From Nemertoderma westbladi (Eukaryota > Animalia > Xenacoelomorpha), in assembly GCA_032718475.1 (NCBI GenBank), contig JAUCBJ010002839.1:1-55124 (forward strand): DNA of 55,124 nucleotides, read 5' to 3'. The stretch's first letter is position 1; the number at the start of each line of letters is the position of its first letter. Both the position numbers and the translations under genes were made by a program. This document shows, in pieces, positions 1-55,124 of this stretch. The notes under the pieces are model-generated. The model worked only from the letters and a program-made list of their open reading frames with translations, ran no database searches and was not told the DNA's origin.

Positions 1-3000
1 AGTTCCAGTTATCTGGTAACATATTTAAATAGAGTGGAACTGGTTCCAGTTATCTGGTAACATATTTATATAGAGTGGAACTAGTTCCAGTTATCTGGTA
101 ACATATTTAAATAGAGTGGAACTAGTTCCAGTTATCTGGTAACATATTTAAATAGAGTGGAACTAGTTCCAGTTATCTGGTAACATATTTAAATAGAGTG
201 GAACTGGTTCCAGTTATCTGGTAACATATTTAAATAGAGTGGAACTGGTTCCAGTTATCTGGTAACATATTTAAATAGAGTGGAACTGGTTCCAGTTATC
301 TGGTAACATATTTAAATAGAGTGGAACTAGTTCCAGTTATCTGGTAACATATTTAAATAGAGTGGAACTGGTTCCAGTTATCTTGTAACATATTTAAATA
401 GAGTGGAACTAGTTCCAGTTATCTGGTAACATATTTAAATAGAGTGGAACTGGTTCCAGTTATCTGGTAACATATTTAAATAGAGTGGAACTAGTTCCAG
501 TTATCTGGTAACATATTTAAATAGAGTGGAACTAGTTCCAGTTATCTGGTAACATATTTAAATAGAGTGGAACTAGTTCCAGTTATCTGGTAACATATTT
601 AAATAGAGTGGAACTAGTTCCAGTTATCTGGTAACATATTTAAATAGAGTGGAACTGGTTCCAGTTATCTGGTAACATATTTATATAGAGTGGAACTGGT
701 TCCAGTTATCTGGTAACATATTTAAATAGAGTGGAACTAGTTCCAGTTATCTGGTAACATATTTAAATAGAGTGGAACTAGTTCCAGTTATCTGGTAACA
801 TATTTAAATAGAGTGGAACTAGTTCCAGTTATCTGGTAACATATTTAAATAGAGTGGAACTAGTTCCAGTTATCTGGTAACATATTTAAATAGAGTGGAA
901 CTAGTTCCAGTTATCTGGTAACATATTTAAATAGAGTGGAACTAGTTCCAGTTATCTGGTAACATATTTAAATAGAGTGGAACTAGTTCCAGTTATCTGG
1001 TAACATATTTAAATAGAGTGGAACTAGTTCCAGTTATCTGGTAACATATTTAAATAGAGTGGAACTAGTTCCAGTTATCTGGTAACATATTTAAATAGAG
1101 TGGAACTAGTTCCAGTTATCTGGTAACATATTTAAATAGAGTGGAACTAGTTCCAGTTATCTGGTAACATATTTAAATAGAGTGGAACTAGTTCCAGTTA
1201 TCTGGTAACATATTTAAATAGAGTGGAACTAGTTCCAGTTATCTGGTAACATATTTAAATAGAGTGGAACTAGTTCCAGTTATCTGGTAACATATTTAAA
1301 TAGAGTGGAACTGGTTCCAGTTATCTGGTAACATATTTAAATAGAGTGGAACTAGTTCCAGTTATCTGGTAACATATTTAAATAGAGTGGAACTAGTTCC
1401 AGTTATCTGGTAACATATTTAAATAGAGTGGAACTAGTTCCAGTTATCTGGTAACATATTTAAATAGAGTGGAACTAGTTCCAGTTATCTGGTAACATAT
1501 TTAAATAGAGTGGAACTGGTTCCAGTTATCTGGTAACATATTTAAATAGAGTGGAACTAGTTCCAGTTATCTGGTAACATATTTAAATAGAGTGGAACTA
1601 GTTCCAGTTATCTGGTAACATATTTAAATAGAGTGGAACTAGTTCCAGTTATCTGGTAACATATTTATATAGAGTGGAACTAGTTCCAGTTATCTGGTAA
1701 CATATTTATATAGAGTGGAACTAGTTCCAGTTATCTGGTAACATATTTAAATAGAGTGGAACTAGTTCCAGTTATCTGGTAACATATTTAAATAGAGTGG
1801 AACTAGTTCCAGTTATCTGGTAACATATTTAAATAGAGTGGAACTAGTTCCAGTTATCTGGTAACATATTTAAATAGAGTGGAACTAGTTCCAGTTATCT
1901 GGTAACATATTTAAATAGAGTGGAACTAGTTCCAGTTATCTGGTAACATATTTATATAGAGTGGAACTAGTTCCAGTTATCTGGTAACATATTTATATAG
2001 AGTGGAACTAGTTCCAGTTATCTGGTAACATATTTATATAGAGTGGAACTAGTTCCAGTTATCTGGTAACATATTTAAATAGAGTGGAACTAGTTCCAGT
2101 TATCTGGTAACATATTTATATAGAGTGGAACTAGTTCCAGTTATCTGGTAACATATTTAAATAGAGTGGAACTAGTTCCAGTTATCTGGTAACATATTTA
2201 AATAGAGTGGAACTAGTTCCAGTTATCTGGTAACATATTTATATAGAGTGGAACTAGTTCCAGTTATCTGGTAACATATTTAAATAGAGTGGAACTAGTT
2301 CCAGTTATCTGGTAACATATTTAAATAGAGTGGAACTAGTTCCAGTTATCTGGTAACATATTTAAATAGAGTGGAACTAGTTCCAGTTATCTGGTAACAT
2401 ATTTAAATAGAGTGGAACTAGTTCCAGTTATCTGGTAACATATTTAAATAGAGTGGAACTAGTTCCAGTTATCTGGTAACATATTTAAATAGAGTGGAAC
2501 TAGTTCCAGTTATCTGGTAACATATTTAAATAGAGTGGAACTAGTTCCAGTTATCTGGTAACATATTTATATAGAGTGGAACTAGTTCCAGTTATCTGGT
2601 AACATATTTATATAGAGTGGAACTAGTTCCAGTTATCTGGTAACATATTTATATAGAGTGGAACTAGTTCCAGTTATCTGGTAACATATTTAAATAGAGT
2701 GGAACTAGTTCCAGTTATCTGGTAACATATTTATATAGAGTGGAACTAGTTCCAGTTATCTGGTAACATATTTATATAGAGTGGAACTAGTTCCAGTTAT
2801 CTGGTAACATATTTAAATAGAGTGGAACTAGTTCCAGTTATCTGGTAACATATTTAAATAGAGTGGAACTAGTTCCAGATATCTGGTAACATATTTAAAT
2901 AGAGTGGAACTAGTTCCAGTTATCTGGTAACATATTTAAATAGAGTGGAACTAGTTCCAGTTATCTGGTAACATATTTAAATAGAGTGGAACTAGTTCCA

Positions 3001-6000
3001 GTTATCTTGTAACATATTTAAATAGAGTGGAACTAGTTCCAGTTATCTGGTAACATATTTAAATAGAGTGGAACTAGTTCCAGTTATCTGGTAACATATT
3101 TAAATAGAGTGGAACTAGTTCCAGATATCTGGTAACATATTTAAATAGAGTGGAACTAGTTCCAGTTATCTGGTAACATATTTAAATAGAGTGGAACTAG
3201 TTCCAGATATCTGGTAACATATTTAAATAGAGTGGAACTAGTTCCAGTTATTGGTAACATATTTATATAGAGTTGAACTAGTTCCAGTTATCTGGTAACA
3301 TATTTAAATAGAGTGGAACTGGTTCCAGTTATCTTGTAACATATTTAAATAGAGTGGAACTGTTCCAGTTATCTTGTAACATATTTAAATAGAGTGGAAC
3401 TGGTTCCGGTTATCTGGTAACATATTTAAATAGAGTGGAACTAGTTCCAGTTATCTGGTAACATATTTAAATAGAGTGGAACTAGTTCCAGTTATCTGGT
3501 AACATATTTAAATAGAGTGGAACTAGTTCCAGTTATCTGGTAACATATTTAAATAGAGTGGAACTAGTTCCAGTTATCTGGTAACATATTTAAATAGAGT
3601 GGAACTAGTTCCAGTTATCTGGTAACATATTTAAATAGAGTGGAACTAGTTCCAGTTATCTGGTAACATATTTAAATAGAGTGGAACTAGTTCCAGTTAT
3701 CTGGTAACATATTTATATAGAGTGGAACTAGTTCCAGTTATCTGGTAACATATTTAAATAGAGTGGAACTAGTTCCAGTTATCTGGTAACATATTTATAT
3801 AGAGTGGAACTAGTTCCAGTTATCTGGTAACATATTTATATAGAGTGGAACTAGTTCCAGATATCTGGTAACATAGTTAAATAGAGTGGAACTAGTTCCA
3901 GTTATCTGGTAACATATTTAAATAGAGTGGAACTAGTTCCAGTTATCTGGTAACATATTTAAATAGAGTGGAACTAGTTCCAGTTATCTGGTAACATATT
4001 TAAATAGAGTGGAACTAGTTCCAGTTATCTGGTAACATATTTAAATAGAGTGGAACTAGTTCCAGTTATCTGGTAACATATTTAAATAGAGTGGAACTAG
4101 TTCCAGTTATCTGGTAACATATTTAAATAGAGTGGAACTAGTTCCAGTTATCTGGTAACATATTTATATAGAGTGGAACTAGTTCCAGTTATCTGGTAAC
4201 ATATTTATATAGAGTGGAACTAGTTCCAGTTATCTGGTAACATATTTATATAGAGTGGAACTAGTTCCAGTTATCTGGTAACATATTTAAATAGAGTGGA
4301 ACTAGTTCCAGTTATCTGGTAACATATTTATATAGAGTGGAACTAGTTCCAGTTATCTGGTAACATATTTATATAGAGTGGAACTAGTTCCAGTTATCTG
4401 GTAACATATTTAAATAGAGTGGAACTAGTTCCAGTTATCTGGTAACATATTTAAATAGAGTGGAACTAGTTCCAGATATCTGGTAACATATTTAAATAGA
4501 GTGGAACTAGTTCCAGTTATCTGGTAACATATTTAAATAGAGTGGAACTAGTTCCAGTTATCTGGTAACATATTTAAATAGAGTGGAACTAGTTCCAGTT
4601 ATCTGGTAACATATTTAAATAGAGTGGAACTAGTTCCAGTTATCTGGTAACATATTTAAATAGAGTGGAACTAGTTCCAGTTATCTGGTAACATATTTAA
4701 ATAGAGTGGAACTGGTTCCAGTTATCTGGTAACATATTTAAATAGAGTGGAACTAGTTCCAGTTATCTGGTAACATATTTAAATAGAGTGGAACTAGTTC
4801 CAGTTATCTGGTAACATATTTAAATAGAGTGGAACTAGTTCCAGTTATCTGGTAACATATTTAAATAGAGTGGAACTGGTTCCAGTTATCTGGTAACATA
4901 TTTAAATAGAGTGGAACTAGTTCCAGTTATCTGGTAACATATTTAAATAGAGTGGAACTAGTTCCAGTTATCTGGTAACATATTTAAATAGAGTGGAACT
5001 AGTTCCAGTTATCTGGTAACATATTTAAATAGAGTGGAACTAGTTCCAGTTATCTGGTAACATATTTAAATAGAGTGGAACTAGTTCCAGTTATCTGGTA
5101 ACATATTTAAATAGAGTGGAACTAGTTCCAGTTATCTGGTAACATATTTAAATAGAGTGGAACTAGTTCCAGTTATCTGGTAACATATTTATATAGAGTG
5201 GAACTAGTTCCAGTTATCTGGTAACATATTTAAATAGAGTGGAACTGGTTCCAGTTATCTGGTAACATATTTAAATAGAGTGGAACTAGTTCCAGTTATC
5301 TTGTAACATATTTAAATAGAGTGGAACTAGTTCCAGTTATCTGGTAACATATTTAAATAGAGTGGAACTAGTTCCAGTTATCTGGTAACATATTTAAATA
5401 GAGTGGAACTAGTTCCAGTTATCTGGTAACATATTTAAATAGAGTGGAACTAGTTCCAGTTATCTGGTAACATATTTAAATAGAGTGGAACTAGTTCCAG
5501 TTATCTGGTAACATATTTAAATAGAGTGGAACTAGTTCCAGTTATCTGGTAACATATTTAAATAGAGTGGAACTAGTTCCAGTTATCTGGTAACATATTT
5601 AAATAGAGTGGAACTAGTTCCAGTTATCTGGTAACATATTTAAATAGAGTGGAACTAGTTCCAGTTATCTGGTAACATATTTAAATAGAGTGGAACTAGT
5701 TCCAGTTATCTGGTAACATATTTAAATAGAGTGGAACTAGTTCCAGTTATCTGGTAACATATTTAAATAGAGTGGAACTAGTTCCAGTTATCTGGTAACA
5801 TATTTAAATAGAGTGGAACTAGTTCCAGTTATCTGGTAACATATTTAAATAGAGTGGAACTAGTTCCAGTTATCTGGTAACATATTTAAATAGAGTGGAA
5901 CTAGTTCCAGTTATCTGGTAACATATTTAAATAGAGTGGAACTAGTTCCAGTTATCTGGTAACATATTTAAATAGAGTGGAACTAGTTCCAGTTATCTGG

Positions 6001-9000
6001 TAACATATTTAAATAGAGTGGAACTAGTTCCAGTTATCTGGTAACATATTTAAATAGAGTGGAACTAGTTCCAGTTATCTGGTAACATATTTAAATAGAG
6101 TGGAACTAGTTCCAGTTATCTGGTAACATATTTAAATAGAGTGGAACTAGTTCCAGTTATCTGGTAACATATTTAAATAGAGTGGAACTAGTTCCAGTTA
6201 TCTGGTAACATATTTAAATAGAGTGGAACTAGTTCCAGTTATCTGGTAACATATTTAAATAGAGTGGAACTAGTTCCAGTTATCTGGTAACATATTTAAA
6301 TAGAGTGGAACTAGTTCCAGTTATCTGGTAACATATTTAAATAGAGTGGAACTAGTTCCAGTTATCTGGTAACATATTTAAATAGAGTGGAACTAGTTCC
6401 AGTTATCTGGTAACATATTTAAATAGAGTGGAACTAGTTCCAGTTATCTGGTAACATATTTAAATAGAGTGGAACTAGTTCCAGTTATCTGGTAACATAT
6501 TTAAATAGAGTGGAACTAGTTCCAGTTATCTGGTAACATATTTAAATAGAGTGGAACTAGTTCCAGTTATCTGGTAACATATTTAAATAGAGTGGAACTA
6601 GTTCCAGTTATCTGGTAACATATTTAAATAGAGTGGAACTAGTTCCAGTTATCTGGTAACATATTTAAATAGAGTGGAACTAGTTCCAGTTATCTGGTAA
6701 CATATTTAAATAGAGTGGAACTAGTTCCAGTTATCTGGTAACATATTTAAATAGAGTGGAACTAGTTCCAGTTATCTGGTAACATATTTAAATAGAGTGG
6801 AACTAGTTCCAGTTATCTGGTAACATATTTAAATAGAGTGGAACTAGTTCCAGTTATCTGGTAACATATTTAAATAGAGTGGAACTAGTTCCAGTTATCT
6901 GGTAACATATTTAAATAGAGTGGAACTAGTTCCAGTTATCTGGTAACATATTTAAATAGAGTGGAACTAGTTCCAGTTATCTGGTAACATATTTAAATAG
7001 AGTGGAACTAGTTCCAGTTATCTGGTAACATATTTAAATAGAGTGGAACTAGTTCCAGTTATCTGGTAACATATTTAAATAGAGTGGAACTAGTTCCAGT
7101 TATCTGGTAACATATTTAAATAGAGTGGAACTAGTTCCAGTTATCTGGTAACATATTTAAATAGAGTGGAACTAGTTCCAGTTATCTGGTAACATATTTA
7201 AATAGAGTGGAACTAGTTCCAGTTATCTGGTAACATATTTAAATAGAGTGGAACTAGTTCCAGTTATCTGGTAACATATTTAAATAGAGTGGAACTAGTT
7301 CCAGTTATCTGGTAACATATTTAAATAGAGTGGAACTAGTTCCAGTTATCTGGTAACATATTTAAATAGAGTGGAACTAGTTCCAGTTATCTGGTAACAT
7401 ATTTAAATAGAGTGGAACTAGTTCCAGTTATCTGGTAACATATTTAAATAGAGTGGAACTAGTTCCAGTTATCTGGTAACATATTTAAATAGAGTGGAAC
7501 TAGTTCCAGTTATCTGGTAACATATTTAAATAGAGTGGAACTAGTTCCAGTTATCTGGTAACATATTTAAATAGAGTGGAACTAGTTCCAGTTATCTGGT
7601 AACATATTTAAATAGAGTGGAACTAGTTCCAGTTATCTGGTAACATATTTAAATAGAGTGGAACTAGTTCCAGTTATCTGGTAACATATTTAAATAGAGT
7701 GGAACTAGTTCCAGTTATCTGGTAACATATTTAAATAGAGTGGAACTAGTTCCAGTTATCTGGTAACATATTTAAATAGAGTGGAACTAGTTCCAGTTAT
7801 CTGGTAACATATTTAAATAGAGTGGAACTAGTTCCAGTTATCTGGTAACATATTTAAATAGAGTGGAACTAGTTCCAGTTATCTGGTAACATATTTAAAT
7901 AGAGTGGAACTAGTTCCAGTTATCTGGTAACATATTTAAATAGAGTGGAACTAGTTCCAGTTATCTGGTAACATATTTAAATAGAGTGGAACTAGTTCCA
8001 GTTATCTGGTAACATATTTAAATAGAGTGGAACTAGTTCCAGTTATCTGGTAACATATTTAAATAGAGTGGAACTAGTTCCAGTTATCTGGTAACATATT
8101 TAAATAGAGTGGAACTAGTTCCAGTTATCTGGTAACATATTTAAATAGAGTGGAACTAGTTCCAGTTATCTGGTAACATATTTATATAGAGTGGAACTAG
8201 TTCCAGTTATCTGGTAACATATTTATATAGAGTGGAACTAGTTCCAGTTATCTGGTAACATATTTAAATAGAGTGGAACTAGTTCCAGTTATCTGGTAAC
8301 ATATTTATATAGAGTGGAACTAGTTCCAGTTATCTGGTAACATATTTAAATAGAGTGGAACTAGTTCCAGTTATCTGGTAACATATTTAAATAGAGTTGA
8401 ACTAGTTCCAGTTATCTGGTAACATATTTAAATAGAGTGGAACTAGTTCCAGTTATCTGGTAACATATTTAAATAGAGTGGAACTAGTTCCAGTTATCAG
8501 GTAACATATTTAAATAGAGTAGAACTAGTTCCAGTTATCTGGTAACATATTTAAATAGAGTGGAACTAGTTCCAGTTATCAGGTAACATATTTAAATAGA
8601 GTGGAACTAGTTCCAGTTATCTGGTAACATATTTAAATAGAGTGGAACTAGTTCCAGTTATCTGGTAACATATTTAAATAGAGTGGAACTAGTTCCAGTT
8701 ATCTGGTAACATATTTAAATAGAGTGGAACTAGTTCCACTTATCTGGTAACATATTTAAATAGAGTGGAACTAGTTCCAGTTATCTGGTAACATATTTAA
8801 ATAGAGTGGAACTAGTTCCAGTTATCTGGTAACATATTTAAATAGAGTGGAACTAGTTCCAGTTATCTGGTAACATATTTAAATAGAGTGGAACTAGTTC
8901 CAGTTATCTGGTAACATATTTAAATAGAGTGGAACTAGTTCCAGTTATCTGGTAACATATTTAAATAGAGTGGAACTAGTTCCAGTTATCTGGTAACATA

Positions 9001-10970
9001 TTTAAATAGAGTGGAACTAGTTCCAGTTATCTGGTAACATATTTATATAGAGTGGAACTAGTTCCAGTTATCTGGTAACATAATTAAATAGAGTGGAACT
9101 AGTTCCAGTTATCTGGTAACATATTTAAATAGAGTGGAACTAGTTCCAGTTATCTGGTAACATATTTAAATAGAGTGGAACTAGTTCCAGTTATCTGGTA
9201 ACATATTTAAATAGAGTGGAACTAGTTCCAGTTATCTGGTAACATATTTAAATAGAGTGGAACTAGTTCCAGTTATCTGGCAACATATTTAAATAGAGTG
9301 GAACTAGTTCCAGTTATCTGGTAACATATTTAAATAGAGTGGAACTAGTTCCAGTTATCTGGTAACATATTTAAATAGAGTGGAACTAGTTCCAGTTATC
9401 TGGTAACATATTTAAATAGAGTGGAACTAGTTCCAGTTATCTGGTAACATATTTAAATAGAGTGGAACTAGTTCCAGTTATCTGGTAACATATTTAAATA
9501 GAGTGGAACTAGTTCCAGTTATCTAGTAACATATTTATATAGAGTGGAACTAGTTCCAGTTATCTGGTAACATATTTATATAGAGTGGAACTAGTTCCAG
9601 TTATCTGGTAACATATTTATATAGAGTGGAACTAGTTCCAGTTATCTGGTAACATATTTAAATAGAGTGGAACTAGTTCCAGTTATCTGGTAACATATTT
9701 AAATAGAGTTGAACTAGTTCCAGTTATCTGGTAACATATTTAAATATAGTGGAACTAGTTCCAGTTATCTGGTAACATATTTAAATAGAGTTGAACTAGT
9801 TCCAGTTATCTGGTAACATATTTAAATAGAGTGGAACTAGTTCCAAATATCTGGTAACATATTTAAATAGAGTGGAACTAGTTCCAGTTATTGGTAACAT
9901 ATTTATATAGAGTTGAACTAGTTCCAGTTATCTGGTAACATATTTAAATAGAGTGGAACTGGTTCCGGTTATCTGGTAACATATTTAAATAGAGTGGAAC
10001 TAGTTCCAGTTATCTGGTAACATATTTAAATAGAGTGGAACTAGTTCCAGTTATCTGGTAACATATTTATATAGAGTGGAACTAGTTCCAGTTATCTGGT
10101 AACATATTTATATAGAGTGGAACTAGTTCCAGATATCTGGTAACATATTTATATAGAGTGGAACTAGTTCCAGTTATCTGGTAACATATTTATATAGAGT
10201 GGAACTAGTTCCAGATATCTGGTAACATATTTATATAGAGTGGAACTAGTTTCAGTTATCTGGTAACATATTTATATAGAGTGGAACTAGTTCCAGTTAT
10301 CTGGTAACATATTTATATAGAGTGGAACTAGTTCCAGTTATCTGGTAACATATTTAAATAGAGTGGAACTAGTTCCAGTTATCTAGTAACATATTTAAAT
10401 ATAGTGGAACTAGTTCCAGTTATCTTGTAACATATTTAAATAGAGTGGAACTAGTTCCAGTTATCTGGTAACATATTTAAATAGAGTGGAACTAGTTCCA
10501 GTTATCTGGTAACATATTTATATAGAGTGGAACTAGTTCCAGTTATCTGGTAACATATTTATATAGAGTGGAACTAGTTCCAGTTATCTGGTAACATATT
10601 TATATAGAGTGGAACTAGTTCCAGTTATCTGGTAACATATTTAAATAGAGTGGAACTAGTTCCAGTTATCTGGTAACATATTTAAATAGAGTGGAACTAG
10701 TTCCAGTTATCTGGTAACATATTTAAATAGAGTGGAACTAGTTCCAGTTATCTGGTAACATATTTAAATAGAGTGGAACTAGTTCCAGTTATCTGGTAAC
10801 ATATTTAAATAGAGTTGAACTAGTTCCAGTTATCTGGTAACATATTTAAATAGAGTGGAACTAGTTCCAGATATCTGGTAACATATTTAAATAGAGTGGA
10901 ACTAGTTCCAGTTATCTGGTAACATATTTAAATAGAGTGGAACTAGTTCCAGTTATCTGGTAACATATTT
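1..10970. repeat. 41-bp satellite array (~267 monomers, continues past window start)
   Basis: Tandem monomer AGTTCCAGTTATCTGGTAACATATTTAAATAGAGTGGAACT with sparse SNP variants (tttata/tttaaa, actgg/actag). It ends at ...taacatattt (10970). Confidence 0.99.
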
Positions 10971-11046
10971 GCACTTCTGGTAGGATTTACTCCCTCAATG
11001 TCTGTATATTGTTCTAAATTGAATTAATTCATAATTATTAATTTAG

Positions 11047-11119
11047 AGAAACTTGCGGAAGCCTCTAATATCGATGTCGCTGTGGTCCCGCCTAAGGGGG
11101 AAATATCCGGAAACACCAG
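11047..11119 (+). CDS. Candidate common (constant) internal coding exon of a BED-finger gene
   Basis: GC-richer island between two satellites. It is preceded by AT-rich ...attaatttag and ends in CACCAG|GTGAGT (consensus donor, GT at 11120-11121). Open frame: ag-KLAEASNIDVAVVPPKGEISGNT-ag. It ends in phase 2, matching all four downstream BED cassettes. Confidence 0.72.
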
Positions 11120-14100
11120 GTGAGTTTATTGTGTAGCCCGGAATCCGGGTGAGTTTATTGTGTCACCCGGAATCCGAGTGAGTTTATTGTGTAACCCGGA
11201 ATCCGAGTGAGTTTATTGTGTAACCCGGAATCCGAGTGAGTTTATTGAGTAACCCGGAATCCGAGTGAGTTTATTGTGTAACCCGGAATCCAGTGAGTTT
11301 ATTGTGTAACCCGGAATCCGGGTGAGTTTATTGTGTAACCCGGAATCCGGGTGAGTTTATTGTGTAACCCGGAATCCGAGTGAGTTTATTGAGTAACCCG
11401 GAATCCGAGTGAGTTTATTGTGTAACCCGGAATCCAGTGAGTTTATTGTGTAACCCGGAATCCGGGTGAGTTTATTGTGTAACCCGGAATCCGGGTGAGT
11501 TTATTGTGTAACCCGGAATCCGGGTGAGTTTATTCTGTAACCCGGAATCCGAGTGAGTTTATTGTGTAACCCGGAATCCAGTGAGTTTATTGTGTAACCC
11601 GGAATCCGGGTGAGTTTATTGTGTAACCCGGAATCCGGGTGAGTTTATTGTGTAACCCGGAATCCGAGTGAGTTTATTGTGTAACCCGGAATCCGAGTGA
11701 GTTTATTGAGTAACCCGGAATCCGAGTGAGTTTATTGTGTAACCCGGAATCCGAGTGAGTTTATTGTGTAACCCGGAATCCGAGTGAGTTTATTGAGTAA
11801 CCCGGAATCCGAGTGAGTTTATTGTGTAACCCGGAATCCAGTGAGTTTATTGTGTAACCCGGAATCCGGGTGAGTTTATTGTGTAACCCGGAATCCGGGT
11901 GAGTTTATTGTGTAACCCGGAATCCGGGTGAGTTTATTGTGTAACCCGGAATCCGGGTGAGTTTATTGTGTAACCCGGAATCCGGGTGAGTTTATTGTGT
12001 AACCCGGAATCCGGGTGAGTTTATTCTGTAACCCGGAATCCGAGTGAGTTTATTGTGTAACCCGGAATCCAGTGAGTTTATTGTGTAACCCGGAATCCGG
12101 GTGAGTTTATTGTGTAACCCGGAATCCGGGTGAGTTTATTGTGTAACCCGGAATCCGAGTGAGTTTATTGTGTAACCCGGAATCCGAGTGAGTTTATTGA
12201 GTAACCCGGAATCCGAGTGAGTTTATTGTGTAACCCGGAATCCGAGTGAGTTTATTGTGTAACCCGGAATCCGAGTGAGTTTATTGAGTAACCCGGAATC
12301 CGAGTGAGTTTATTGTGTAACCCGGAATCCAGTGAGTTTATTGTGTAACCCGGAATCCGGGTGAGTTTATTGTGTAACCCGGAATCCGAGTGAGTTTATT
12401 GTGTAACCCGGAATCCGAGTGAGTTTATTGTGTAACCCGGAATCCGAGTGAGTTTATTGAGTAACCCGGAATCCGAGTGAGTTTATTGTGTAACCCGGAA
12501 TCCAGTGAGTTTATTGTGTAACCCGGAATCCGGGTGAGTTTATTGTGTAACCCGGAATCCGGGTGAGTTTATTGTGTAACCCGGAATCCGGGTGAGTTTA
12601 TTGTGTAACCCGGAATCCGGGTGAGTTTATTGTGTAACCCGGAATCCGGGTGAGTTTATTGAGTAACCCGGAATCCGAGTGAGTTTATTGTGTAACCCGG
12701 AATCCAGTGAGTTTATTGTGTAACCCGGAATCCGGGTGAGTTTATTGTGTAACCCGGAATCCGGGTGAGTTTATTGTGTAACCCGGAATCCGAGTGAGTT
12801 TATTGAGTAACCCGGAATCCGAGTGAGTTTATTGTGTAACCCGGAATCCAGTGAGTTTATTGTGTAACCCGGAATCCGGGTGAGTTTATTGTGTAACCCG
12901 GAATCCGGGTGAGTTTATTGTGTAACCCGGAATCCGAGTGAGTTTATTGAGTAACCCGGAATCCGAGTGAGTTTATTGTGTAACCCGGAATCCAGTGAGT
13001 TTATTGTGTAACCCGGAATCCGGGTGAGTTTATTGTGTAACCCGGAATCCGGGTGAGTTTATTGTGTAACCCGGAATCCGGGTGAGTTTATTCTGTAACC
13101 CGGAATCCGAGTGAGTTTATTGTGTAACCCGGAATCCAGTGAGTTTATTGTGTAACCCGGAATCCGGGTGAGTTTATTGTGTAACCCGGAATCCGGGTGA
13201 GTTTATTGTGTAACCCGGAATCCGAATGAGTTTATTGTGTAACCCGGAATCCGAGTGAGTTTATTGAGTAACCCGGAATCCGAGTGAGTTTATTGTGTAA
13301 CCCGGAATCCGAGTGAGTTTATTGTGTAACCCGGAATCCGAGTGAGTTTATTGAGTAACCCGGAATCCGAGTGAGTTTATTGTGTAACCCGGAATCCAGT
13401 GAGTTTATTGTGTAACCCGGAATCCGGGTGAGTTTATTGTGTAACCCTGAATCCGAGTGAGTTTATTGAGTAACCCGGAATCCGAGTGAGTTTATTGTGT
13501 AACCCGGAATCCGAGTGAGTTTATTGTGTAACCCGGAATCCGAGTGAGTTTATTGAGTAACCCGGAATCCGAGTGAGTTTATTGTGTAACCCGGAATCCA
13601 GTGAGTTTATTGTGTAACCCGGAATCCGGGTGAGTTTATTGTGTAACCCGGAATCCGGGTGAGTTTATTGTGTAACCCGGAATCCGAGTGAGTTTATTGA
13701 GTAACCCGGAATCCGAGTGAGTTTATTGTGTAACCCGGAATCCAGTGAGTTTATTGTGTAACCCGGAATCCGGGTGAGTTTATTGTGTAACCCGGAATCC
13801 GGGTGAGTTTATTGTGTAACCCGGAATCCGGGTGAGTTTATTCTGTAACCCGGAATCCGAGTGAGTTTATTGTGTAACCCGGAATCCAGTGAGTTTATTG
13901 TGTAACCCGGAATCCGGGTGAGTTTATTGTGTAACCCGGAATCCGAGTGAGTTTATTGAGTAACCCGGAATCCGAGTGAGTTTATTGTGTAACCCGGAAT
14001 CCAGTGAGTTTATTGTGTAACCCGGAATCCGGGTGAGTTTATTGTGTAACCCGGAATCCGGGTGAGTTTATTGTGTAACCCGGAATCCGGGTGAGTTTAT

Positions 14101-14223
14101 TGTGTAACCCGGAATCCGGGTGAGTTTATTGTGTAACCCGGAATCCGAGTGATTTTATTGTGTAACCCGGAATCCGAGTGAGTTTATTGTGTAACCCGGA
14201 ATCCGGGTGAGTTAATTGTGTAA
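11120..14223 (+). repeat. 29-bp satellite array (~107 monomers), each carrying the GTGAGT donor hexamer
   Basis: Monomer GTGAGTTTATTGTGTAACCCGGAATCCG(G/A), with recurring 28-bp (..atccagtgagt) and ttgagt/ttctgt variants. It begins exactly at the donor GT of the 11047-11119 exon. Confidence 0.98.
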
Positions 14224-15390
14224 CGTGTATTTCGTCCTGTCCTTGTGTCTTCGAGCTCCTCTGTGTCGTGTTTATCTTGTTCCTCCGTGTGACGAATCGA
14301 ACATACTAAAACAAGTAGATAACCAAGAAACAGCTGTTTAAGTTTTCTTTTTTGTGTAAATTTTCTAAGAATAACTTAAGTGGGAAAGTAATTATATTTC
14401 CACATTGAACGGTAACCAAACCTCCATATACGAACATTTCTAATACAAGCAACATAAATTTATATTTTCTCTATAATTTGATATGGATTATTTAATCCTC
14501 TTGGGCTCCACACATGCGCACAAGCATTGCGTATGTGTGGATTTTCAGATGGGTTGAATTGACAGAAGGGGGAGAGAAGAGAGGCTAGTAACAGCTAACA
14601 GGTCTGGACTTGTCCCATTCCATCACACATTTGTAACAGACATGGGACATTAGGTTACAGTGGCAACATTGCTAAATAGCGCGTTTTGTTCCCTGAATTG
14701 ACATCCCCCAACCCTCCCCCCCTAATTTTTCATTTTTTCAATTGATGTTTTTGGTTTTCGCTTTGCTTTAATATTTAACTCCAATTGCTAATAGTTAATA
14801 TGTTTTTTAAGTATTTGTTTACTGTGTGTAATTATTTCGAGAGAATTTAATTTAATTTTTGGAAATGATATGTATTTATTTTGGTTAAATATTTTAATTT
14901 TTTGTAGGCATTAATTGTTTTTGCGTTGCTTTTTGTGTTTGAATAATAATATTTGGGAAGACTTCATTTTCTTTGGTGCTGCCAAATAATATTTTATTAT
15001 TTAAATTGGTTTTATATATATAATTTATGTTAATTTATTTTAATTTAATTTTGATATTTTTGCCTTTTGACGTCTTACTGTGAGTGAACGCATCCTATCC
15101 TTTATTTACACGTTGAACACGTTCTGGACCTACTAACTATTTGGAATGGAATGTTCTGATATTTCGGAATTCATCTTTATAAAATGAGAAACTCATTGAG
15201 TCTTACATGCAGTCCCTCCAGACTGATATTTATAGTTTAATAAACCAAATCATTTGATATCGCCAATGTTCCTTTTGATTGGCCGTTTGTATAATTTGGA
15301 GAGACCTTTGTAACATATTCCCTCGCAATCCCACCCCACCAATGTTGCAAGTCTAGCCCAACTCACTCGCTCCATTTATGTTTGTTTCAG

Positions 15391-15685
15391 TTCTGCGTCC
15401 AACCAATCTCCCATTACTCGTTCCCGTCGACGCACTTCCGGTTCCGTCGACCGCGCCGGCCACTTTATTCCCTCCCGGGCGTCCAGCTTCGCGTGGCGGT
15501 ACTTCACGCTGCTCCCAGAACTGCCGCAGTTCGCTGGTTGTCTAATCTGCGACAAACGCGTTCGTATCACGTCCACCACCACCAGTCCCTTTCTCAGACA
15601 CCTCCGCCAAGCCCACGGTTTAGTAGGGGTGAAACCTGATAGGGTGTCTCCCGAGAAACAGTCTGACGTAAATCCCGCATCGTAA
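15391..15685 (+). CDS. BED zinc-finger alternative terminal exon 1 (this frame is absent from the ORF track)
   Basis: Acceptor tttgtttcag|T. Hand translation: (S)SASNQSPITRSRRRTSGSVDRAGHFIPSRASSFAWRYFTLLPELPQFAGCLICDKRVRITSTTTSPFLRHLRQAHGLVGVKPDRVSPEKQSDVNPAS*. W-x-Y-F, Cx2C-x16-Hx4H is the BED signature. TAA at 15683-15685. Confidence 0.85.
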
Positions 15686-16426
15686 TAATTACTGGAATTT
15701 ATTTTATCGTCTATAGATCAGTCAAACATTCAACCGAAACATTAATTAATTAATTAATTAATTAATTATGTACATCACGGATTGGTTTATCAACAAGATT
15801 ATCAGAACCATTACAATACCGAAATATTCAACCAAATCTACTTTATCATGTATCAACCACAGGATGCCTCTAATTATTTTGTAATACGTCACTTGGAATC
15901 TATTCCTATCAGTTTATCGATATTATCTCGAGACCAACTGGTCTGAGATTGACAATCTATTCCTAAAAACGGAGGAGGTTTACAAACTAGGGGCTTTATT
16001 ACTGGGAGTAGGTGCGACCTTGCGATCTCAGACTGACTGCCTACTGTAATTAAATACAATTATTTATTTATATGTACAAATTTGTAACTTTTCATTTAGT
16101 TGCTTTTTATTCGGTATTGTAAGATTAATATTATTATTAATATATTAATTATTGGTATAAATATTATATACGATTCAGATTGACATTTGATTTAATTTAA
16201 TTGTTTGATTTCTTTAATGGGTAATCAGTTATTTCGTAAGTTATATCTATACCGACTATACAGACACTCACAAACAGTAGGCTGCAACCGGGACTGGTGT
16301 TCTAGTTACTATTGACTCCCCCAGGAGTCATTCTAAACGGGCATTATTTTACACCGGTAGGCAACACGTTGTTATAAAAGCCCAACCAATACAATACTGC
16401 AGTCGGTTTAATTTTATCGTTTTTAG

Positions 16427-16685
16427 TTCGAATGTTACTTTAGTGGAACGGATCGGTGGACAGCCAAGTGGTGCGTCGATGCGTCTGGTCCCCACCCACG
16501 CGAAGAGTTTTGCCTGGAACTATTTCACTCTGCTTTCAGACAACCCTAACCAATCGTTGTGTACGCTATGTGGTCGTTTATTTAAATACAATCACTCTAC
16601 TTGCACCACTTCACGGCTTCTTCAACACCTAAAAAACTCACATCGGCTTGTCGGGGCGAAGAAGAACATATTATCGCGAATTTAG
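16427..16685 (+). CDS. BED zinc-finger alternative terminal exon 2
   Basis: Acceptor tcgtttttag|T, phase 2. (S)SNVTLVERIGGQPSGASMRLVPTHAKSFAWNYFTLLSDNPNQSLCTLCGRLFKYNHSTCTTSRLLQHLKNSHRLVGAKKNILSRI*. Cx2C-x18-Hx4H. Confidence 0.85.
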
Positions 16686-17426
16686 TTTATTGTAATAGCC
16701 GCTAGATGGAGTAACTAATTGTACTTGCTGCTAAGTGACGTTACTTAATATGACTAACAGTGCTAAACAACTATATTTTGCAAATATTCAATCCGATTTC
16801 GCAGATATGGGGGGATATTCGACACATTCAATATTCATCCCTCTCCAGGGGAAAATCGTCGCAAATAACAGCTGATTACTCTCAAAAATATAACTGTATC
16901 CTGTTCTATTGACTTTCGTTTATTGTTTTGGTTAGAATACATTTTGGTCATCTGCTCTTCTCCCTGAATTGATATTTTAACATTGAGGCCAAATATTAAT
17001 TAGCTGAGGTGGGATTTGCGTCTACATTCTCCAACTCAGTGTTTTAAATATAAAAAACATTTTTCAGAACTATATTCCTTTGAAACCTGTAGTATAATAT
17101 TTGCCAAATATTTTTGATATTACATTCCTGTTTATAAAAGCTTTGGCCTACATTTCTATTTGCAATTGTATTTAATTTTAAACAATTTTATTTTACAAAC
17201 TTTTTTTTGTTTTGAAACTTTATTTATCCTTAACTTCACGGATTTTTTCGTTTGTTTGGGCCGTCTCCATGGTGACGGATTAGGGACTTCGCCTCATTGT
17301 TCAGGAGTGACTTCAATGCTGCATGACTGGGTGTCAAAATATAAAACTACACCAATTGGGTGCAAATATAACAACAAATATATTTAATATCAATTACGTT
17401 TGCAATGTGTGTTTGCTTTCTTTCAG

Positions 17427-17715
17427 TTTTGGACACGAACTGGCCACCCATTTGCAGCACTTAGTACCGTCACGCGCGCAGAGTTTTGTCTGGAACTATT
17501 TCACCATGCTGCCTAACTCTACCGGGTCGCTGCCTAACTCTACCGGGTTCGTATCCTGTATGATTTGCGGTCAGAATATGGTCTATCTAACCTCCAAAGC
17601 CACCTGTAGTACAACGTCCCTAATACGGCATCTAAAGACGGCCCATAACTCGAAACAAAGTCTAAAGCTTCATCCCAATCTAGGAGGAAGAACTAAAGTT
17701 AACTCCATAACTTAG
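17427..17715 (+). CDS. BED zinc-finger alternative terminal exon 3
   Basis: Acceptor ctttctttcag|T, phase 2. (S)FGHELATHLQHLVPSRAQSFVWNYFTMLPNSTGSLPNSTGFVSCMICGQNMVYLTSKATCSTTSLIRHLKTAHNSKQ...SIT*. Cx2C-x20-Hx4H. AATAAA at 17922-17927 downstream. Confidence 0.85.
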
Positions 17716-17991
17716 AAGCATTTAATGTACCTGAATTTATATCGAAACGAAACAATATTCATAGATTTTTTGTTAAATTCAACCTACTCGTACGTAATGT
17801 CACATATTTCCATGAACCTACTACTGAGTGTTACTCTTAGCCTTACGACGTCGCCTCTTCCAGTTTACTAGGACGGATATGACGGTATGGACGGTATGAG
17901 GCGCCGTTACCGCGAAGCCAGAATAAAAAAAAACACTACGTCGGAATAGGTGATTGGAAGTCAGAAAAGTATGGTCTAATTAGACGTCAAG

Positions 17992-19341
17992 TTTTCTTGA
18001 GTTCCATTTATTTTTCGTTACTACCATTTCTTTTTCCTCACTACCATAAAAATTTATTTTCCTGACTTCCATTTATTATTCCTGACTTCCATTTATTATT
18101 CCTGACTTCCATTTATTTTTCCTGACTTCCATTTATTATTCCTGACTTCCATTTCTTTTTCCTGACTTCCATTTCTTTTTCCTGACTTCCATTTATTTTT
18201 CCTGACTTCCATTTATTATTCCTGACTTCCATTTCTTTTTCCTGACTTCCATTTATTTTTCCTGACTTCCATTTATTTTTCCTGACTTCCATTTATTTTT
18301 CCTGACTTCCATTTATTTTTCCTGACTGCCATTTATTTTTCCTGACTTCCATCTATTTTTCTTGGAGTTCCATCTATTTTTCGTTACTACCATTTCTTTT
18401 TCCTCACTACCATAAAAAAATTTATTTTTCCTGACTTCCATTTATTTTTCTTGACTACCATTTATTTTTCCTGACTTCCATTTATTATTCCTGACTTCCA
18501 TTTCTTTTTCCTGACTTCCATTTCTTTTTCCTGACTTCCATTTATTTTTCCTGACTTTTATTTATTTTTCTTGACCTCAATTTATTTTTCTTGACTTCCA
18601 TTTATTTTTCTTGACTTCCATTTATTTTTACCGACTTCCATTTATTTTTCCTAACTTCCATTTATTTTTCCTGACTTCCATTTATTTTTACCGACTTCCA
18701 TTTATTTTTCCTAACTTCCATTTATTTTTCCGGACTTCCATTTATTTTTCCTGACTTCCATTTATTATTCCTAACTTCCATTTATTTTCCTGACTTCCAT
18801 TTATTTTTCCTAACTTCCATTTATTTTTACCGACTTCCATTTATTTTTCCTAACTTCCATTTATTTTTCCTGACTTCCATTTATTTTTCCTGACTTCCAT
18901 TTATTATTCCTAACTTCCATTTATTTTTCCTGACTTCCATTTATTTTTCCTGACTTCCATTTATTTTTCCTAACTTCCATTTATGCTTCCTTCCTGACTT
19001 CCATTTATTTTTCCTGACTTCCATTTATCTTTCCGACTTCCATTTATTTTTTACCGACTTCCATTTATTTTTCCTGACTTCCATTTCTTTTTCCTGACTT
19101 CCATTTCTTTTTCCTAACTTCCATTTCTTTTTCCTGACTTTCATTTATTTTTCCTGACTTTTATTTATTTTTCTTGACCTCAATTTATTTTTCTTGACTT
19201 TCATTTATTTTTCTTGACTTCCATTTATTTTTTACCGACTTCCATTTATTTTTCCTAACTTCCATTTATTTTTCCTGACTTCCATTTATCTTTCCGACTT
19301 CCATTAATTTTTTCTGACTTAATTTATTTTTCCTGACTTCC
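17992..19341. repeat. 20-bp minisatellite (~65 monomers)
   Basis: Monomer CCTGACTTCCATTTATTTTT with variants. The degenerate leading block (cgttactacc..cctcactaccataaaa) occurs at ~18015 and again at ~18380. Confidence 0.95.
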
Positions 19342-20902
19342 AGTTTATCATTTACATTTCGCTGTTGTTACTTCCAAAGTTTCGCTATTTTGGCTTCTTA
19401 TTGCCGGTAACAGAAAATTGGTCATAGGCGAGATTTATATTGTACTCGTGCAATACCGGTACTCATGGTGATGAATGTATAAATGTTCATTTTGGAAATT
19501 TTTGTTCAATAAATACTGTATAAATTTTACTGTAGTAGGCCTACAGTATATACCTAAATATTGTCGATAATATTTAATACAGTAAGTAATATATTCAAGC
19601 ATTATTATTATGTTATGATATTATTTGTTATTATATTTTTGTTATTATATTATGTTAGATATCTAACACTAAATATCTAACAGAAATTCAATAAGAAATA
19701 GTATTTTGTCTCCGGTTGAACGTGTGTGTTGGTTGAATGGCGGTTGTTGAACTATGTGTTTCACATTTCATGCGATATGTTATGGTAGGGTCCTTGTCGT
19801 CAGAAAATAATTACGTTAATAATTTAATATATTACGTTTTATTGTGTAATTATTTGATTAAATTATTAATTGATTATAATTTCACGTATCTAACATAAAT
19901 TGAGAGAATGACTTAAGATTTTAAACAAAACTTATTCATATTTAAAGACTTTATAGTCAAAATCTAACGAATTATTCCGATATTAATTTGTTTAATCATT
20001 GTAATATTATGAAGAATGTTTATTACCAGGTTCTTATATAAATTTCAATATGTAAATATAATAATAATTTTATAATATAATCTAAGGAAACGAACCTGCT
20101 CAGTACGTCTCCATTGCAACACTCGTTGCGCTCATGCCAAACCAGGTGGTTTATAGGCGTATAGTCAACGTAGTACTCGTCTTCATTATTAGCCTCGTTG
20201 CGCTCGATTTGTTTTGTTTGAGAATATTTTTACTCAACGCATACTGCCGTACTTTGTAACTATGCAAAGTCTCAAAACTGTGCGGGTTACAGATAATCTA
20301 TAGGTCCTTACCATACCTAGAATACATTATATAGATAAAGCAGATAGTGGCGCACTTTGACGAGTTTGACCGCAAGTGAAAAAAAGTTTTGTATATTGTT
20401 TTGGTTAGAAAACACCGCAACTGTATCCGGCTCTTTTCACTTAATGTTTTAAATTATATAAATTAAATAAATTTTTTAAACCGTTTAATGACCGCTTTTT
20501 GTGGTAATTTTGCGCCATCGACTCAGATAGTAGACAGGTACCGGTACCAAAGGTTTCGACAAAATACTCACCCCGCCAATAATACAGGCAGCGGGCAGCA
20601 TTGGTGGATTTTCAATTCATTCTCATAAATAAACCAGCAGAATTTTGAAAGTCCTTATCAAACCAATAAAAATCAAAAGATGCGAAAATATGAAGAGCGC
20701 GTCACTCTCATTGGCATGGAAAGTTTGTGCTGTTCATGCTGGAAGGGCTTAAAGAGACCTATTGACCCACGGTTGATGCCTGTTTGATCGGAGAATACTA
20801 TATAGCTGACAGCTTTTTATGTAGCCATAGACCTATCCGTTGCCAGGGCTAACCTTTTCTGCTTGTGATTATTATTGTCAAGTTGTTATTAAATATTTGC
20901 AG

Positions 20903-21209
20903 TGTGGATATGTCGAAAGATGTCACGAAAACGCCTAACAACGCGGACCGCATGGTTGATACGTCATCATTGAGTCATATCGTGCCGAAAAATTCGTCTA
21001 GCTTTGTCTGGCGGTACTTCACGTTAATCCAGGACGACCGCCATTGGGTTGTCTGTCTCGTCTGCGGGAAGCTCATTCGTTACTACGCAACCGCGCCTAC
21101 AAGTAACTTTCTTTCCCACCTAAAAGCCTTCCACAATATCGTGGTACCACATCGGAACAAAGTGAAACCTATTAATATGTGGACAGCGCCCCTTAGCGGA
21201 ACAAAGTGA
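20903..21209 (+). CDS. BED zinc-finger alternative terminal exon 4
   Basis: Acceptor atatttgcag|T, phase 2. (S)VDMSKDVTKTPNNADRMVDTSSLSHIVPKNSSSFVWRYFTLIQDDRHWVVCLVCGKLIRYYATAPTSNFLSHLKAFHNIVVPHRNK...SGTK*. Cx2C-x17-Hx4H. Confidence 0.85.
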
Positions 21210-21297
21210 AACCTATTAATAGGTCGATAGCGCCCCTTAGCGGAACAAAGTGAAACCTATTAATAGGTGGACAGCGCCACTTAACGGAACAAAGTGA
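21153..21297. repeat. 44-bp tandem repeat, ~3.3 copies, overlapping the stop of BED exon 4
   Basis: CGGAACAAAGTGAAACCTATTAATA.GT.GA.AGCGCC.CTTA. starts at 21153, 21197, 21241 and 21285 (partial). Confidence 0.95.
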
Positions 21298-22024
21298 TAT
21301 CTATTATAATAGATGGACATGATTAGAGCAACACGTAGCAAGACAAACTGAAACCGAACTGTACAACTCTTCCCCCAATATCCGCATGATACGCAGTTTT
21401 ATGTTTATATTTAAAGCAATCATAATATAAAACGCAACAATAGTTATTTTATATAATGGAAATGACTCAATGGTAGCAGGGAGAGTTTTCATGATCCGAA
21501 TGTTTATTACATCAAACCTGCCTGTTTTTGCCGGTGAAATTTACTACAAAAATATATATTTGTGAAGTAGCTGATGCCAGCCACCCCCCCCCCCCCCCCC
21601 CCCCCCCGGGGAAATGTTGGGGGAAATCAACTTAACTAACGTAAGTTCATTTACCGATATACACCATGTCATGGAATATAGTGTCGTTATAAAGGAACAC
21701 CCCCCCCCCCTCCTATTTTTTCTACAAATCTTAATTTGTAGAAATTCAATTTGAAACAGAGATAGAAGTGGAGGTATATTGAAACATTCAGTACCTTCCA
21801 CTGGGTGAGGCAGAATTTATATTTTCCCGTTATTCTTTAGCCACAAGCGTTTGACAAGGTGTCTCTGTCGACATTGCACCAATCGTACTGCAGTTATTCT
21901 TCAACCCTACAGTATAGTACTGTAATTTGTCGGTAGGTATTGCAGAAAGCTGGCTGTGCAAGGATTCCAAAAAATCCTCAATATTTCCATGGTTGGCATT
22001 GAGCCTTGCTTGTCGGTCGGTGGC

Positions 22025-53024: not shown

Positions 53025-53126
53025 CTATGGTAGCCCAGCACCGTCCTCCAGACCGAGGCCGCTCCTCCATTTGGCCCTCGACCCACCAACGCAATGGGAA
53101 GCACCATGCTAGAGTGCTAACTGCAC
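53025..53126 (-). pseudogene. CRE-like retrotransposon C-terminal tail (distal half of the split element)
   Basis: The minus strand reads VQLAL*HGASHCVGGSRAKWRSGLGLEDGAGLP*, matching the C(L/V)RGSRxKWRS...DGA terminus of animal CRE-type ORFs. It continues in frame from the 54772+ fragment. Confidence 0.8.
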
Positions 53127-54644: not shown

Positions 54645-54771
54645 TCAATAGATCTAAATTGATGTGTGATTTAGTAGCTAATTAGCCTACCTACTGAGGA
54701 TTTTAACCTGTAAATTGTGTGTTTGTTTGACGTATTTTAAACTGTCGGCCTGTCCGATTTTTATGAAATAA
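53127..54771 (+). mobile_element. 5'-truncated non-LTR retrotransposon (LINE; RTE-X/L2-like RT)
   Basis: The RT frame is open from the left junction to the stop at 54644, followed by an AT-rich 3' UTR ending at GAAATAA(A) (~54765-54772). No endonuclease domain is present. The boundaries are defined by the split CRE sequence. Confidence 0.88.
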
Positions 54772-55085
54772 ATGTATCCTCACCCAACCCATAAATAACC
54801 ACGCTGTATGAACGTCCCCACGAATGACTAAGTTTCGCCGCGATCACTCGGAGCAGGTTGTTGGCCTGTGGGGCAACTCCATCACATAACGCAATGAACG
54901 GGGAGAAGTCCGCCCGTCGCGCTGTAACGGCCTCGGCATACAGGCGATTCTTGTCGTCCTCCGCTGACTCGAGGATGGATTTCGGGGGGCGGTTGGCGTA
55001 GGACCCGGCGTCAAGGTTTATTACCTTCATATCAAACAACGCCTGGGTCTGCCTGTTGAAGGCCCCCCGAACCCCCAAGTCGCAG
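54772..55085 (-). pseudogene. CRE-like retrotransposon restriction-like endonuclease (PD-D/ExK) domain fragment
   Basis: DLGVRG.F.RQTQALFDMKVINLDAGSY...AEDDKNRLY...FSPF...DG...LAAKL-like...WGRSYSVV, then after a frameshift MGWVRIH. This is the typical RLE C-terminal domain of animal CRE-clade elements. Confidence 0.8.
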
Positions 55086-55124
55086 CAGTACATACTACAT
55101 CAATAATGTATATCACATAAATGA

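What the first reader, a model, noticed from the sequence alone, without database searches (positions are those of the whole stretch)
11047..21209. Cassette array of four interchangeable BED zinc-finger terminal exons behind one shared exon: a lola/mod(mdg4)-like modular DNA-binding system
Seen: four diverged stand-alone BED fingers (15391, 16427, 17427, 20903), all on +, each 85-101 codons with its own stop and no transposase core. Each has a YAG acceptor ~20-40 codons before the W-x-Y-F motif. In all four the exon begins with a single T before the first full codon (phase 2). The upstream 73-bp exon ends ...ACC AG|GTGAGT, also phase 2, so every junction makes AGT (Ser) and reads in frame. Known: Drosophila lola, broad, fruitless and mod(mdg4) join a constant N-terminus to mutually exclusive terminal zinc-finger exons (C2H2/CCHC, mostly FLYWCH in mod(mdg4)), and lola and mod(mdg4) also use trans-splicing. 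Inference: this is the 3' end of an analogous multi-isoform transcription or chromatin factor built from BED modules. I do not recognise the gene, and the constant N-terminal domain lies upstream of the window.
Basis: partly seen in the sequence, partly recalled or inferred. Interest (0 to 1): 0.93.

Follow-up and report, generated by a model that had tools for sequence, protein, structure and literature searches.

The report
Gene with four swappable BED fingers
An animal gene carries four end exons that each code a different BED-type zinc finger, and at least two of them are likely spliced onto the same front part, so one gene would make several regulators predicted to read different DNA sites, a design known from the fly genes lola and mod(mdg4) but here built only from BED fingers.

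Summary
Observation confirmed. Four + strand exons (acceptors 15391, 16427, 17427, 20903) each encode one zf-BED above the Pfam cut-off, stop 13-24 residues after the finger, and read in frame from the donor at 11119. New evidence: contigs of run X4 begin at the acceptors of cassettes 1-3, while DNA run X2 runs straight through them. The contigs of cassettes 1 and 2 both carry exactly 27 foreign letters upstream, the length an assembly graph gives if both are joined to one common exon. All three listed coding substitutions between individuals are synonymous. So this is very likely one gene with alternative BED last exons, not transposon debris or separate genes. Open: the partner's letters were not seen, cassette 4 was not tested against reads, and the front domain and the taxon are unknown. 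The design is known (lola, mod(mdg4); BEAF-32 swaps BED fingers at the other end); an all-BED set of last exons was not found in nine paper searches. A side observation: the intron behind the shared exon opens with 105 repeated pseudo-donors, recalling the U1-binding element that promotes mod(mdg4) trans-splicing. New variant of a known kind; interest 0.47.

The parts
1..10970 (+). 41-bp satellite, 267.6 copies; inferred to fill the intron upstream of the shared exon. The rest of the gene lies 5' of the window
11047..11119 (+). Candidate last common exon, 73 bp, GC 0.52, open frame ending in phase 2, no ATG in that frame
   Evidence: its use as the partner is inferred from the 27-letter overhangs and the CAG end
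11120..14224 (+). 29-bp satellite (107.6 copies) that starts at the true donor and repeats the exon-intron boundary; 105 further GTGAGT pseudo-donors; reading on into it hits a stop at once
15391..15685 (+). Cassette 1: acceptor, 97 codons, zf-BED (33.2 bits), stop; no Met; 3' flank covered by X4 contigs to 16121
16427..16685 (+). Cassette 2: acceptor, 85 codons, zf-BED (24.3 bits), stop; X4 contig runs to 16802
17427..17715 (+). Cassette 3: acceptor, 95 codons in the window (90 in the allele of X2/X4/X5), zf-BED (36.2 bits) with a 21-bp internal duplication
17922..17949 (+). AATAAA and, 22 bases on, the point where the X4 contig leaves the genome with 29 unseen letters: likely poly(A) site of cassette 3; a 3'-UTR donor at 17950 is the alternative
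20903..21209 (+). Cassette 4: acceptor, 101 codons, zf-BED (34.0 bits), stop inside a 44-bp repeat; has its own ATG at codon 3; not tested against reads

Best explanation
This is likely the 3' end of one transcription- or chromatin-factor gene whose last common exon (likely 11047-11119) is cis-spliced to one of four alternative last exons, each coding a short linker, one BED zinc finger and a stop, so that each isoform is predicted to carry the same front part and a different DNA-reading tip. Shown: four intact BED exons in one phase; transcript-like contigs that start at three of the acceptors; one common upstream partner for cassettes 1 and 2 by overhang length. Inferred: choice is made by competition between each acceptor and the 3'-end signal of the cassette before it; the four arose by local duplication of one BED exon, itself ultimately of hAT-transposase origin (family knowledge); the unseen front part supplies the start codon and probably a multimerising domain (BTB about even odds), since cassette 1 has no Met and single BED fingers in BEAF act in oligomers.
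For: Pfam 4 of 4. In-frame phase-2 joins 4 of 4. X4 contigs start at 15388, 16425 and 17424, that is at the acceptors plus the 3, 2 and 3 letters that the exon's end shares with each intron end, exactly as simulated; X2 contigs pass through the same sites co-linearly. Contigs of cassettes 1 and 2 carry 24+3 and 25+2 = 27 upstream letters; a k=31 graph gives 27/27 only when these two cassettes share one upstream exon (28 or 29 with other pairs, the whole exon if alone), predicted lengths 334 and 403 = observed. The same k=31 logic predicts the far end of an X2 DNA contig at 14184, 30 bases before a unique variant at 14214. Contigs run through each stop into separate 3' flanks. Of 40 listed substitutions in X2 (11 more not shown), 3 fall in 843 coding bases against 37 in 2756 other bases (Fisher p 0.014), and 3 of 3 are synonymous. 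The four fingers form one side of a branch against 60 other BED rows, support 83/84, not starred. Spacing between the Cys and His pairs differs (16, 18, 20, 17 residues) and local identity is 38-55%; BEAF-32A and B, two BED fingers from one gene, bind different sequences (PMC5021357, passages).
Against: The 24 and 25 overhanging letters were not displayed, so the partner is identified by length, CAG end, phase and position only. X4 has no library record and is labelled 'DNA?'; reading it as RNA is my inference, from one run of one study. The cassette-3 contig starts at the acceptor's CAG with no overhang, which implies a second incoming path that I cannot name (unspliced or separately initiated RNA, a second donor, or a dropped record); no CAG|GT lies between 14602 and 20028 to serve as that donor. 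Cassette 4 is untested and has its own ATG. Cassette 3's tail tolerates a 4-base indel and insertions near its stop. No orthologue was found (best single-domain matches 31-46% over about 50-90 residues), so there is no cross-species conservation of the arrangement.
Confidence: 0.75

Rival explanations
1. Same products, but made at least partly by trans-splicing as in mod(mdg4) and lola: cassettes have their own promoters, and the pseudo-donor satellite behind the common exon recruits U1 snRNP.
For: [quoted passage not shown] The unexplained second path into cassette 3 would fit a separately initiated precursor.
Against: All cassettes are co-linear, same strand and within 10 kb, so cis-splicing suffices; no opposite-strand BED in the window. 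73% of the window is satellite and repeats also overlap cassettes 3 and 4, so the array may be a by-product. The pseudo-donors are weaker than the true donor (9 of 11), whereas TSA is the strongest pseudo-site of its intron.
Confidence: 0.1
2. The cassettes are alternative last exons, but the common partner is another exon upstream of the window and the 73-bp island is skipped or not an exon.
For: The partner's letters were not seen; many exons end in CAG; the island's own acceptor ranks only 76 of 271 in my crude score.
Against: The island is the only unique sequence in the first 14.2 kb, is GC-rich (0.52 against 0.28 beside it), has AG/GT ends, the right phase, and predicts the 3/2/3 shared letters seen.
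Confidence: 0.07
3. Four small separate genes, each with its own start or joined to a genome-wide spliced leader.
For: Cassettes 2 and 4 have an in-frame Met before the finger; spliced leaders occur in many invertebrates (recalled).
Against: Cassette 1 has no Met and cassette 3 none before W-x-Y-F. Separate upstream exons would not cut both contigs at 27 letters; a leader with 500 or more partners would leave both four-letter starts unique with probability 0.02 or less (rough model).
Confidence: 0.03
4. Remnants of hAT transposons that were exonised by chance and evolve neutrally.
For: BED fingers are hAT transposase domains; Hermes BED is among the best solved-structure matches (E 1.8e-5).
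Against: No transposase core: each frame stops 13-24 residues after the last His, and none of the 10 ORFs scanned (of 43 listed) hit a hAT family; only short AT-rich inverted pairs around the cassettes; all zinc ligands kept at 38-55% identity; substitutions synonymous 3 of 3; X2 cover over the cassettes comes from one contig each, unlike the true interspersed repeat at about 16,820-17,000.
Confidence: 0.03
5. The cassettes are chained in series into one poly-BED protein, like the many tandem-BED proteins in public sets.
For: The top representatives hit are poly-BED proteins with up to 34 fingers; the cassette-3 contig leaves the genome at a donor-like site (17949/17950).
Against: X4 contigs run through the stops of cassettes 1-3; none of the 15 joints shown (2 not shown) links two cassettes; the site at 17949 lies 234 bases after the stop and 22 after AATAAA.
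Confidence: 0.02

Closest known systems
Drosophila mod(mdg4)
   Same: Common 5' exons joined to many alternative 3' exons, each with one transposon-related zinc finger, expanded by tandem exon duplication (PMC4667647, PMC1702500; passages)
   Different: Its fingers are mostly FLYWCH (26 of 31 isoforms in D. melanogaster), its head is a Tramtrack-type BTB, and it is trans-spliced with cassettes on both strands. Here 4 of 4 are BED, all on one strand, head unseen. I recall that a few mod(mdg4) isoforms carry BED fingers; no call confirmed this.
Drosophila lola (also fruitless, broad)
   Same: Constant head with mutually exclusive last exons; 17 of 20 lola isoforms have different C-terminal fingers (PMC11426971, passages). 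PMC1702500 mentions a POZ-plus-BED combination for fruitless (passage).
   Different: Fingers are C2H2-type; head is BTB; mixed cis/trans-splicing. Neither head nor trans-splicing is shown here.
Drosophila BEAF-32A/32B
   Same: One gene, two interchangeable BED fingers from different exons, different DNA targets (PMC5021357, passages)
   Different: The BED exons are N-terminal, chosen presumably by alternative promoters, with a shared C-terminal BESS domain; two isoforms. Here the geometry is reversed and there are four.
BTB-plus-BED proteins of crustaceans and unnamed assemblies (P0084 from krill; P0139, P0149, P0155, P0099)
   Same: Show that a BTB domain and BED fingers occur together in one protein (5 of 68 scanned with PF00651)
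   Different: Several BED fingers in one chain; nothing in the records shows alternative ends; not orthologous by sequence.
ZBED-type domesticated hAT transposases (ZBED1/DREF, ZBED2, ZBED3; Hermes BED)
   Same: Same finger; best solved-structure matches
   Different: No transposase core or hAT dimerisation domain follows; fingers sit singly in alternative exons.

Membership tests
zf-BED (PF02892) | Aromatic W-x-Y/F-F motif, C-x2-C, H-x3-5-H; score above the family cut-off | tested here: met
   4 of 4
lola/mod(mdg4)-type architecture | Several last exons, each with its own finger, stop and 3' flank, in one phase | tested here: met
lola/mod(mdg4)-type architecture | Two or more cassettes spliced to one common upstream exon | tested here: met
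   Indirect, for cassettes 1 and 2: equal 27-letter overhangs as simulated; one run
lola/mod(mdg4)-type architecture | The common exon is 11047-11119 and all four cassettes are used | tested here: inconclusive
mod(mdg4) / lola gene families (Tramtrack group) | N-terminal TTK-type BTB domain | not testable with these tools
   Head lies 5' of the window behind 11 kb of satellite; no genome held; no orthologue found
mod(mdg4) / lola gene families (Tramtrack group) | FLYWCH or C2H2 fingers in most variable exons | tested here: not met
   4 of 4 are BED; no FLYWCH or classical C2H2 pattern in six frames of the window
mod(mdg4) / lola gene families (Tramtrack group) | Trans-splicing, cassettes on the opposite strand or with own promoters | tested here: inconclusive
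   No opposite-strand BED in the window; allele phasing and promoters not testable; pseudo-donor array present
BEAF-32 | Alternative N-terminal BED exons with a common C-terminal BESS region | tested here: not met
   Each BED exon ends in a stop 13-24 residues after the finger
hAT transposon / ZBED transposase genes | BED followed by transposase core and hAT dimerisation domain | tested here: not met
hAT transposon / ZBED transposase genes | Terminal inverted repeats around the unit | tested here: not met
   Only short, mostly AT-rich inverted pairs, none framing a cassette as a family

The most novel reading that the evidence does not exclude
An independently evolved lola-like switchboard built purely from captured hAT BED fingers on a non-BTB head (about 0.3 on its own), in which a satellite amplified from the exon-intron boundary supplies about a hundred U1-binding pseudo-donors that steer the common exon to its cassettes by trans-splicing: a tandem repeat serving as the splicing element that mod(mdg4) carries as one conserved motif.
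Probability: 0.06. Interest if true: 0.85.

Novelty: new variant of a known kind. Interest (0 to 1): 0.47.

Why it matters
It would show that the 'one head, many DNA-binding tips' design of lola and mod(mdg4) can be built from a third finger type, the transposon-derived BED domain, as last exons. Four diverged fingers on one scaffold are a ready natural series for asking how BED fingers change sequence specificity. If the head is not BTB or the animal is not an arthropod, it is a clean case of convergent evolution of the design. As it stands it extends a known scheme rather than opening a new one.

Tried and rejected
No genome is held, so the upstream exons could not be walked. The run search listed no RNA holder. 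In one search, X4 gave no cover in 14230-15363, 16246-16371 and 17128-17379 and X6 none at all; lack of cover in contigs proves nothing and is not counted as evidence. X5 (same sample as X2) gave two short pieces in cassette 1 and 3 regions, too thin to use. No reads were laid on the shared exon or on cassette 4, which leaves the partner's letters and the use of cassette 4 open. Homologue searches with cassette 1 (longer proteins) and the four-way alignment were blank; the representative search gave only generic BED proteins ranked by finger number; the metagenome scan confirmed 0 of 81 pattern hits; the Atlas gave only zf-BED-type clusters. The GPCR at 49389 matched only at 22-26% and does not place the organism. 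Rfam: 0 hits in 10900-22100. Earlier findings by place, sequence and relatives: nothing. I first read the end of an X4 contig at 16121 (227 further letters) as a splice, then rejected it because X2's DNA contigs also break there with extra letters, so it is an insertion allele. Structure and complex prediction were not run: the fold is settled by Pfam and the head is unknown.
Full report
Setting. The window is from an animal-type genome and 73% of it is tandem repeat: a 41-bp array at 1-10970, a 29-bp array at 11120-14224, a 20-bp array at 17992-19348 and a 62-bp array at 22041-47847. No whole genome is held, and the intronless GPCR further downstream matches known receptors at only 22-26%, so the taxon was not placed.

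Observation. The 73-bp exon 11047-11119 sits in the only unique island of the first 14.2 kb, with AG before and GTGAGT after, and one open frame ends in phase 2. The four cassettes give 97, 85, 95 and 101 codons after a junction serine, and 4 of 4 pass the zf-BED cut-off. All keep W-x-Y-F, C-x2-C and H-x4-H; the spacer between the ligand pairs is 16, 18, 20 and 17 residues, and the frames stop 22, 13, 22 and 24 residues after the last His. Local identity between cassettes is 38-55%. The acceptors rank 3, 5, 1 and 18 among 271 AG sites in a crude score of my own. No fifth BED exists on either strand among 2541 six-frame segments. Cassette 1 has no Met and cassette 3 none before the W, so these need an upstream coding exon; cassettes 2 and 4 do have a Met before the finger.

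Read evidence. Six runs were listed, none on record as RNA. Four were laid on 14230-17990. X2 behaves as DNA: its contigs pass co-linearly through all three acceptors. X4, though labelled 'DNA?' with no library record, behaves as RNA, which is my inference: its contigs begin at 15388, 16425 and 17424. These are the acceptors extended by 3, 2 and 3 letters, exactly the letters that the end of the 73-bp exon shares with each intron end. The contigs of cassettes 1 and 2 carry 24 and 25 unmatched letters upstream, so 27 letters before each acceptor. A simulated k=31 assembly graph gives 27 and 27 when these two cassettes, which share their first three bases, hang on one common exon; other pairings give 28 or 29, and a cassette with a private upstream exon would not be cut; predicted contig lengths 334 and 403 equal those observed (the 3' ends in that simulation were taken, so only the 5' ends are a test). 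The strand convention and the k=31 logic were checked on an X2 DNA contig, whose far end falls at 14184, 30 bases before a unique variant at 14214. Depth in the three acceptor bins is fully accounted for by these single contigs. The contigs run through each stop into separate 3' flanks, and none of the 15 joints shown (2 not shown) links two cassettes. The cassette-3 contig leaves the genome at 17949, 22 bases after AATAAA, with 29 unseen letters, most simply a poly(A) tail, though a donor-like site lies there too.

Limits of that evidence. The overhanging letters were not displayed, and no reads were laid on the 73-bp exon or on cassette 4. So 'cassettes 1 and 2 share one partner' rests on overhang length in one run; 'the partner is 11047-11119' rests on its CAG end, phase, GC content and position; cassette 4 rests on sequence alone. 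The cassette-3 contig has no overhang, which implies a second incoming path; adding an unspliced precursor to the simulation reproduces it, but I did not see such a contig, and no CAG|GT lies between 14602 and 20028. This stays unexplained.

Constraint and origin. Of the 40 substitutions listed for X2 (11 more not shown), 3 fall in 843 coding bases and 37 in 2756 other covered bases (Fisher p 0.014); all 3 are synonymous. Against full constraint, the tail of cassette 3 differs by a 4-base indel between the window and X2, X4 and X5, and by insertions near its stop; the finger is untouched. In a tree with the 60 best-scoring long BED domains of 708 found in the fetched proteins (picked with a profile of the four, 45 distinct rows), the four cassettes form one side of a branch, 83/84, not starred: local duplication is consistent, not shown. 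There is no transposase core and no framing inverted repeat. No orthologue was found: searches were blank, and the 150 listed representatives (of 171) are generic BED proteins at 24-40% identity, ranked by finger number. Of these I scanned 30 + 68 with Pfam; 5 of the 68 carry a PF00651 BTB together with BED fingers, one from krill, so BTB and BED do occur together, but with several fingers in one chain.

Mechanism. Most likely (0.75): cis-splicing of a common exon to one of four last exons, chosen by competition between acceptors and 3'-end signals (inferred), giving four proteins with one head and different BED tips. Different targets are inferred from the divergent spacers and from BEAF-32A/B, where two BED fingers of one gene bind different sequences (PMC5021357, passages). 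The head is unseen; a multimerising domain is expected by analogy, BTB at about even odds. A rival (0.10) is trans-splicing. The intron behind the common exon begins with a satellite made from the exon-intron boundary, holding 105 further GTGAGT sites with 7-8 of 11 exact matches to the donor consensus (consensus recalled) against 9 for the true donor; reading on into it meets a stop at once. In mod(mdg4) and lola a pseudo-5' splice site in this same intron binds U1 and promotes trans-splicing (PMC4387717, abstract and passages). But this genome makes satellites everywhere, the cassettes are co-linear, and the pseudo-donors are weaker than the real one, so I treat it as a lead only.

Comparison and novelty. 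The architecture is that of mod(mdg4) (BTB head; FLYWCH in 26 of 31 isoforms; PMC4667647, passages) and lola (17 of 20 isoforms with different C2H2 ends; PMC11426971, passages). PMC1702500 (passages) describes the mod(mdg4) locus and mentions a POZ-plus-BED pairing for fruitless. BEAF-32 swaps BED fingers at the N-terminus. It therefore works like these genes but cannot be filed in their families: the finger type fails and the head is untested. Nine paper searches showed no report of an all-BED array of last exons; ('BED zinc finger' with 'alternative last exon') returned 0 papers. [quoted passage not shown] PMC4208683, PMC8228293, PMC10027918 and PMC13490949 were seen as passages; no supplements were read, and isoform tables there could bear on novelty. 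Earlier notes of this scan list a similar five-cassette BED gene in another genome without RNA support and several lola-like arrays, some without BTB (unchecked), which suggests the design recurs and lowers surprise.

Verdict. A real feature with read support for three of four cassettes; new variant of a known kind; interest 0.47, rising to about 0.65 if the head proves not to be BTB.

Noticed in passing
window 11120-14224: The 29-bp satellite starts exactly at the donor and repeats the exon-intron boundary, giving 105 extra GTGAGT pseudo-donors on the + strand and none on the - strand.
   Followed up: partly
window 17647-17696: Runs X2, X4 and X5 have four more bases after 17647 than the window, shortening cassette 3 to 90 codons; X4 and X5 have further insertions near the stop. 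The window carries a rarer allele or an assembly slip.
   Followed up: yes
window 16820-17000: High-copy interspersed repeat in the 3' flank of cassette 2 (very deep cover in X2, many partial contigs); no Rfam hit.
   Followed up: partly
window 27998-28898: About 900-bp non-coding element with 33-bp terminal inverted repeats (30 of 33 identical, starting CCCAGTG) inserted in the 62-bp satellite: MITE-like.
   Followed up: partly
window 16121/16122: X2 and X4 contigs both carry extra sequence here that the window lacks: an insertion polymorphism in the 3' flank of cassette 1.
   Followed up: partly
window 49389-50372 (+): Single-frame rhodopsin-family GPCR ORF of about 327 codons (7tm_1, 147.7 bits), only 22-26% identical to neuropeptide-type receptors found.
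   Followed up: partly
window 53121-54644 (+) and 54761-55099 (-): A 507-codon reverse-transcriptase ORF (RVT_1, 103.6 bits) and, opposite, a frame without Pfam hit that looks like a retroelement tail (recalled resemblance).
   Followed up: no
window 17508-17548 and 21153-21319: Tandem duplications overlap coding sequence: an in-frame 21-bp duplication inside the finger of cassette 3 and a 44-bp array that supplies the end and stop of cassette 4.
   Followed up: no
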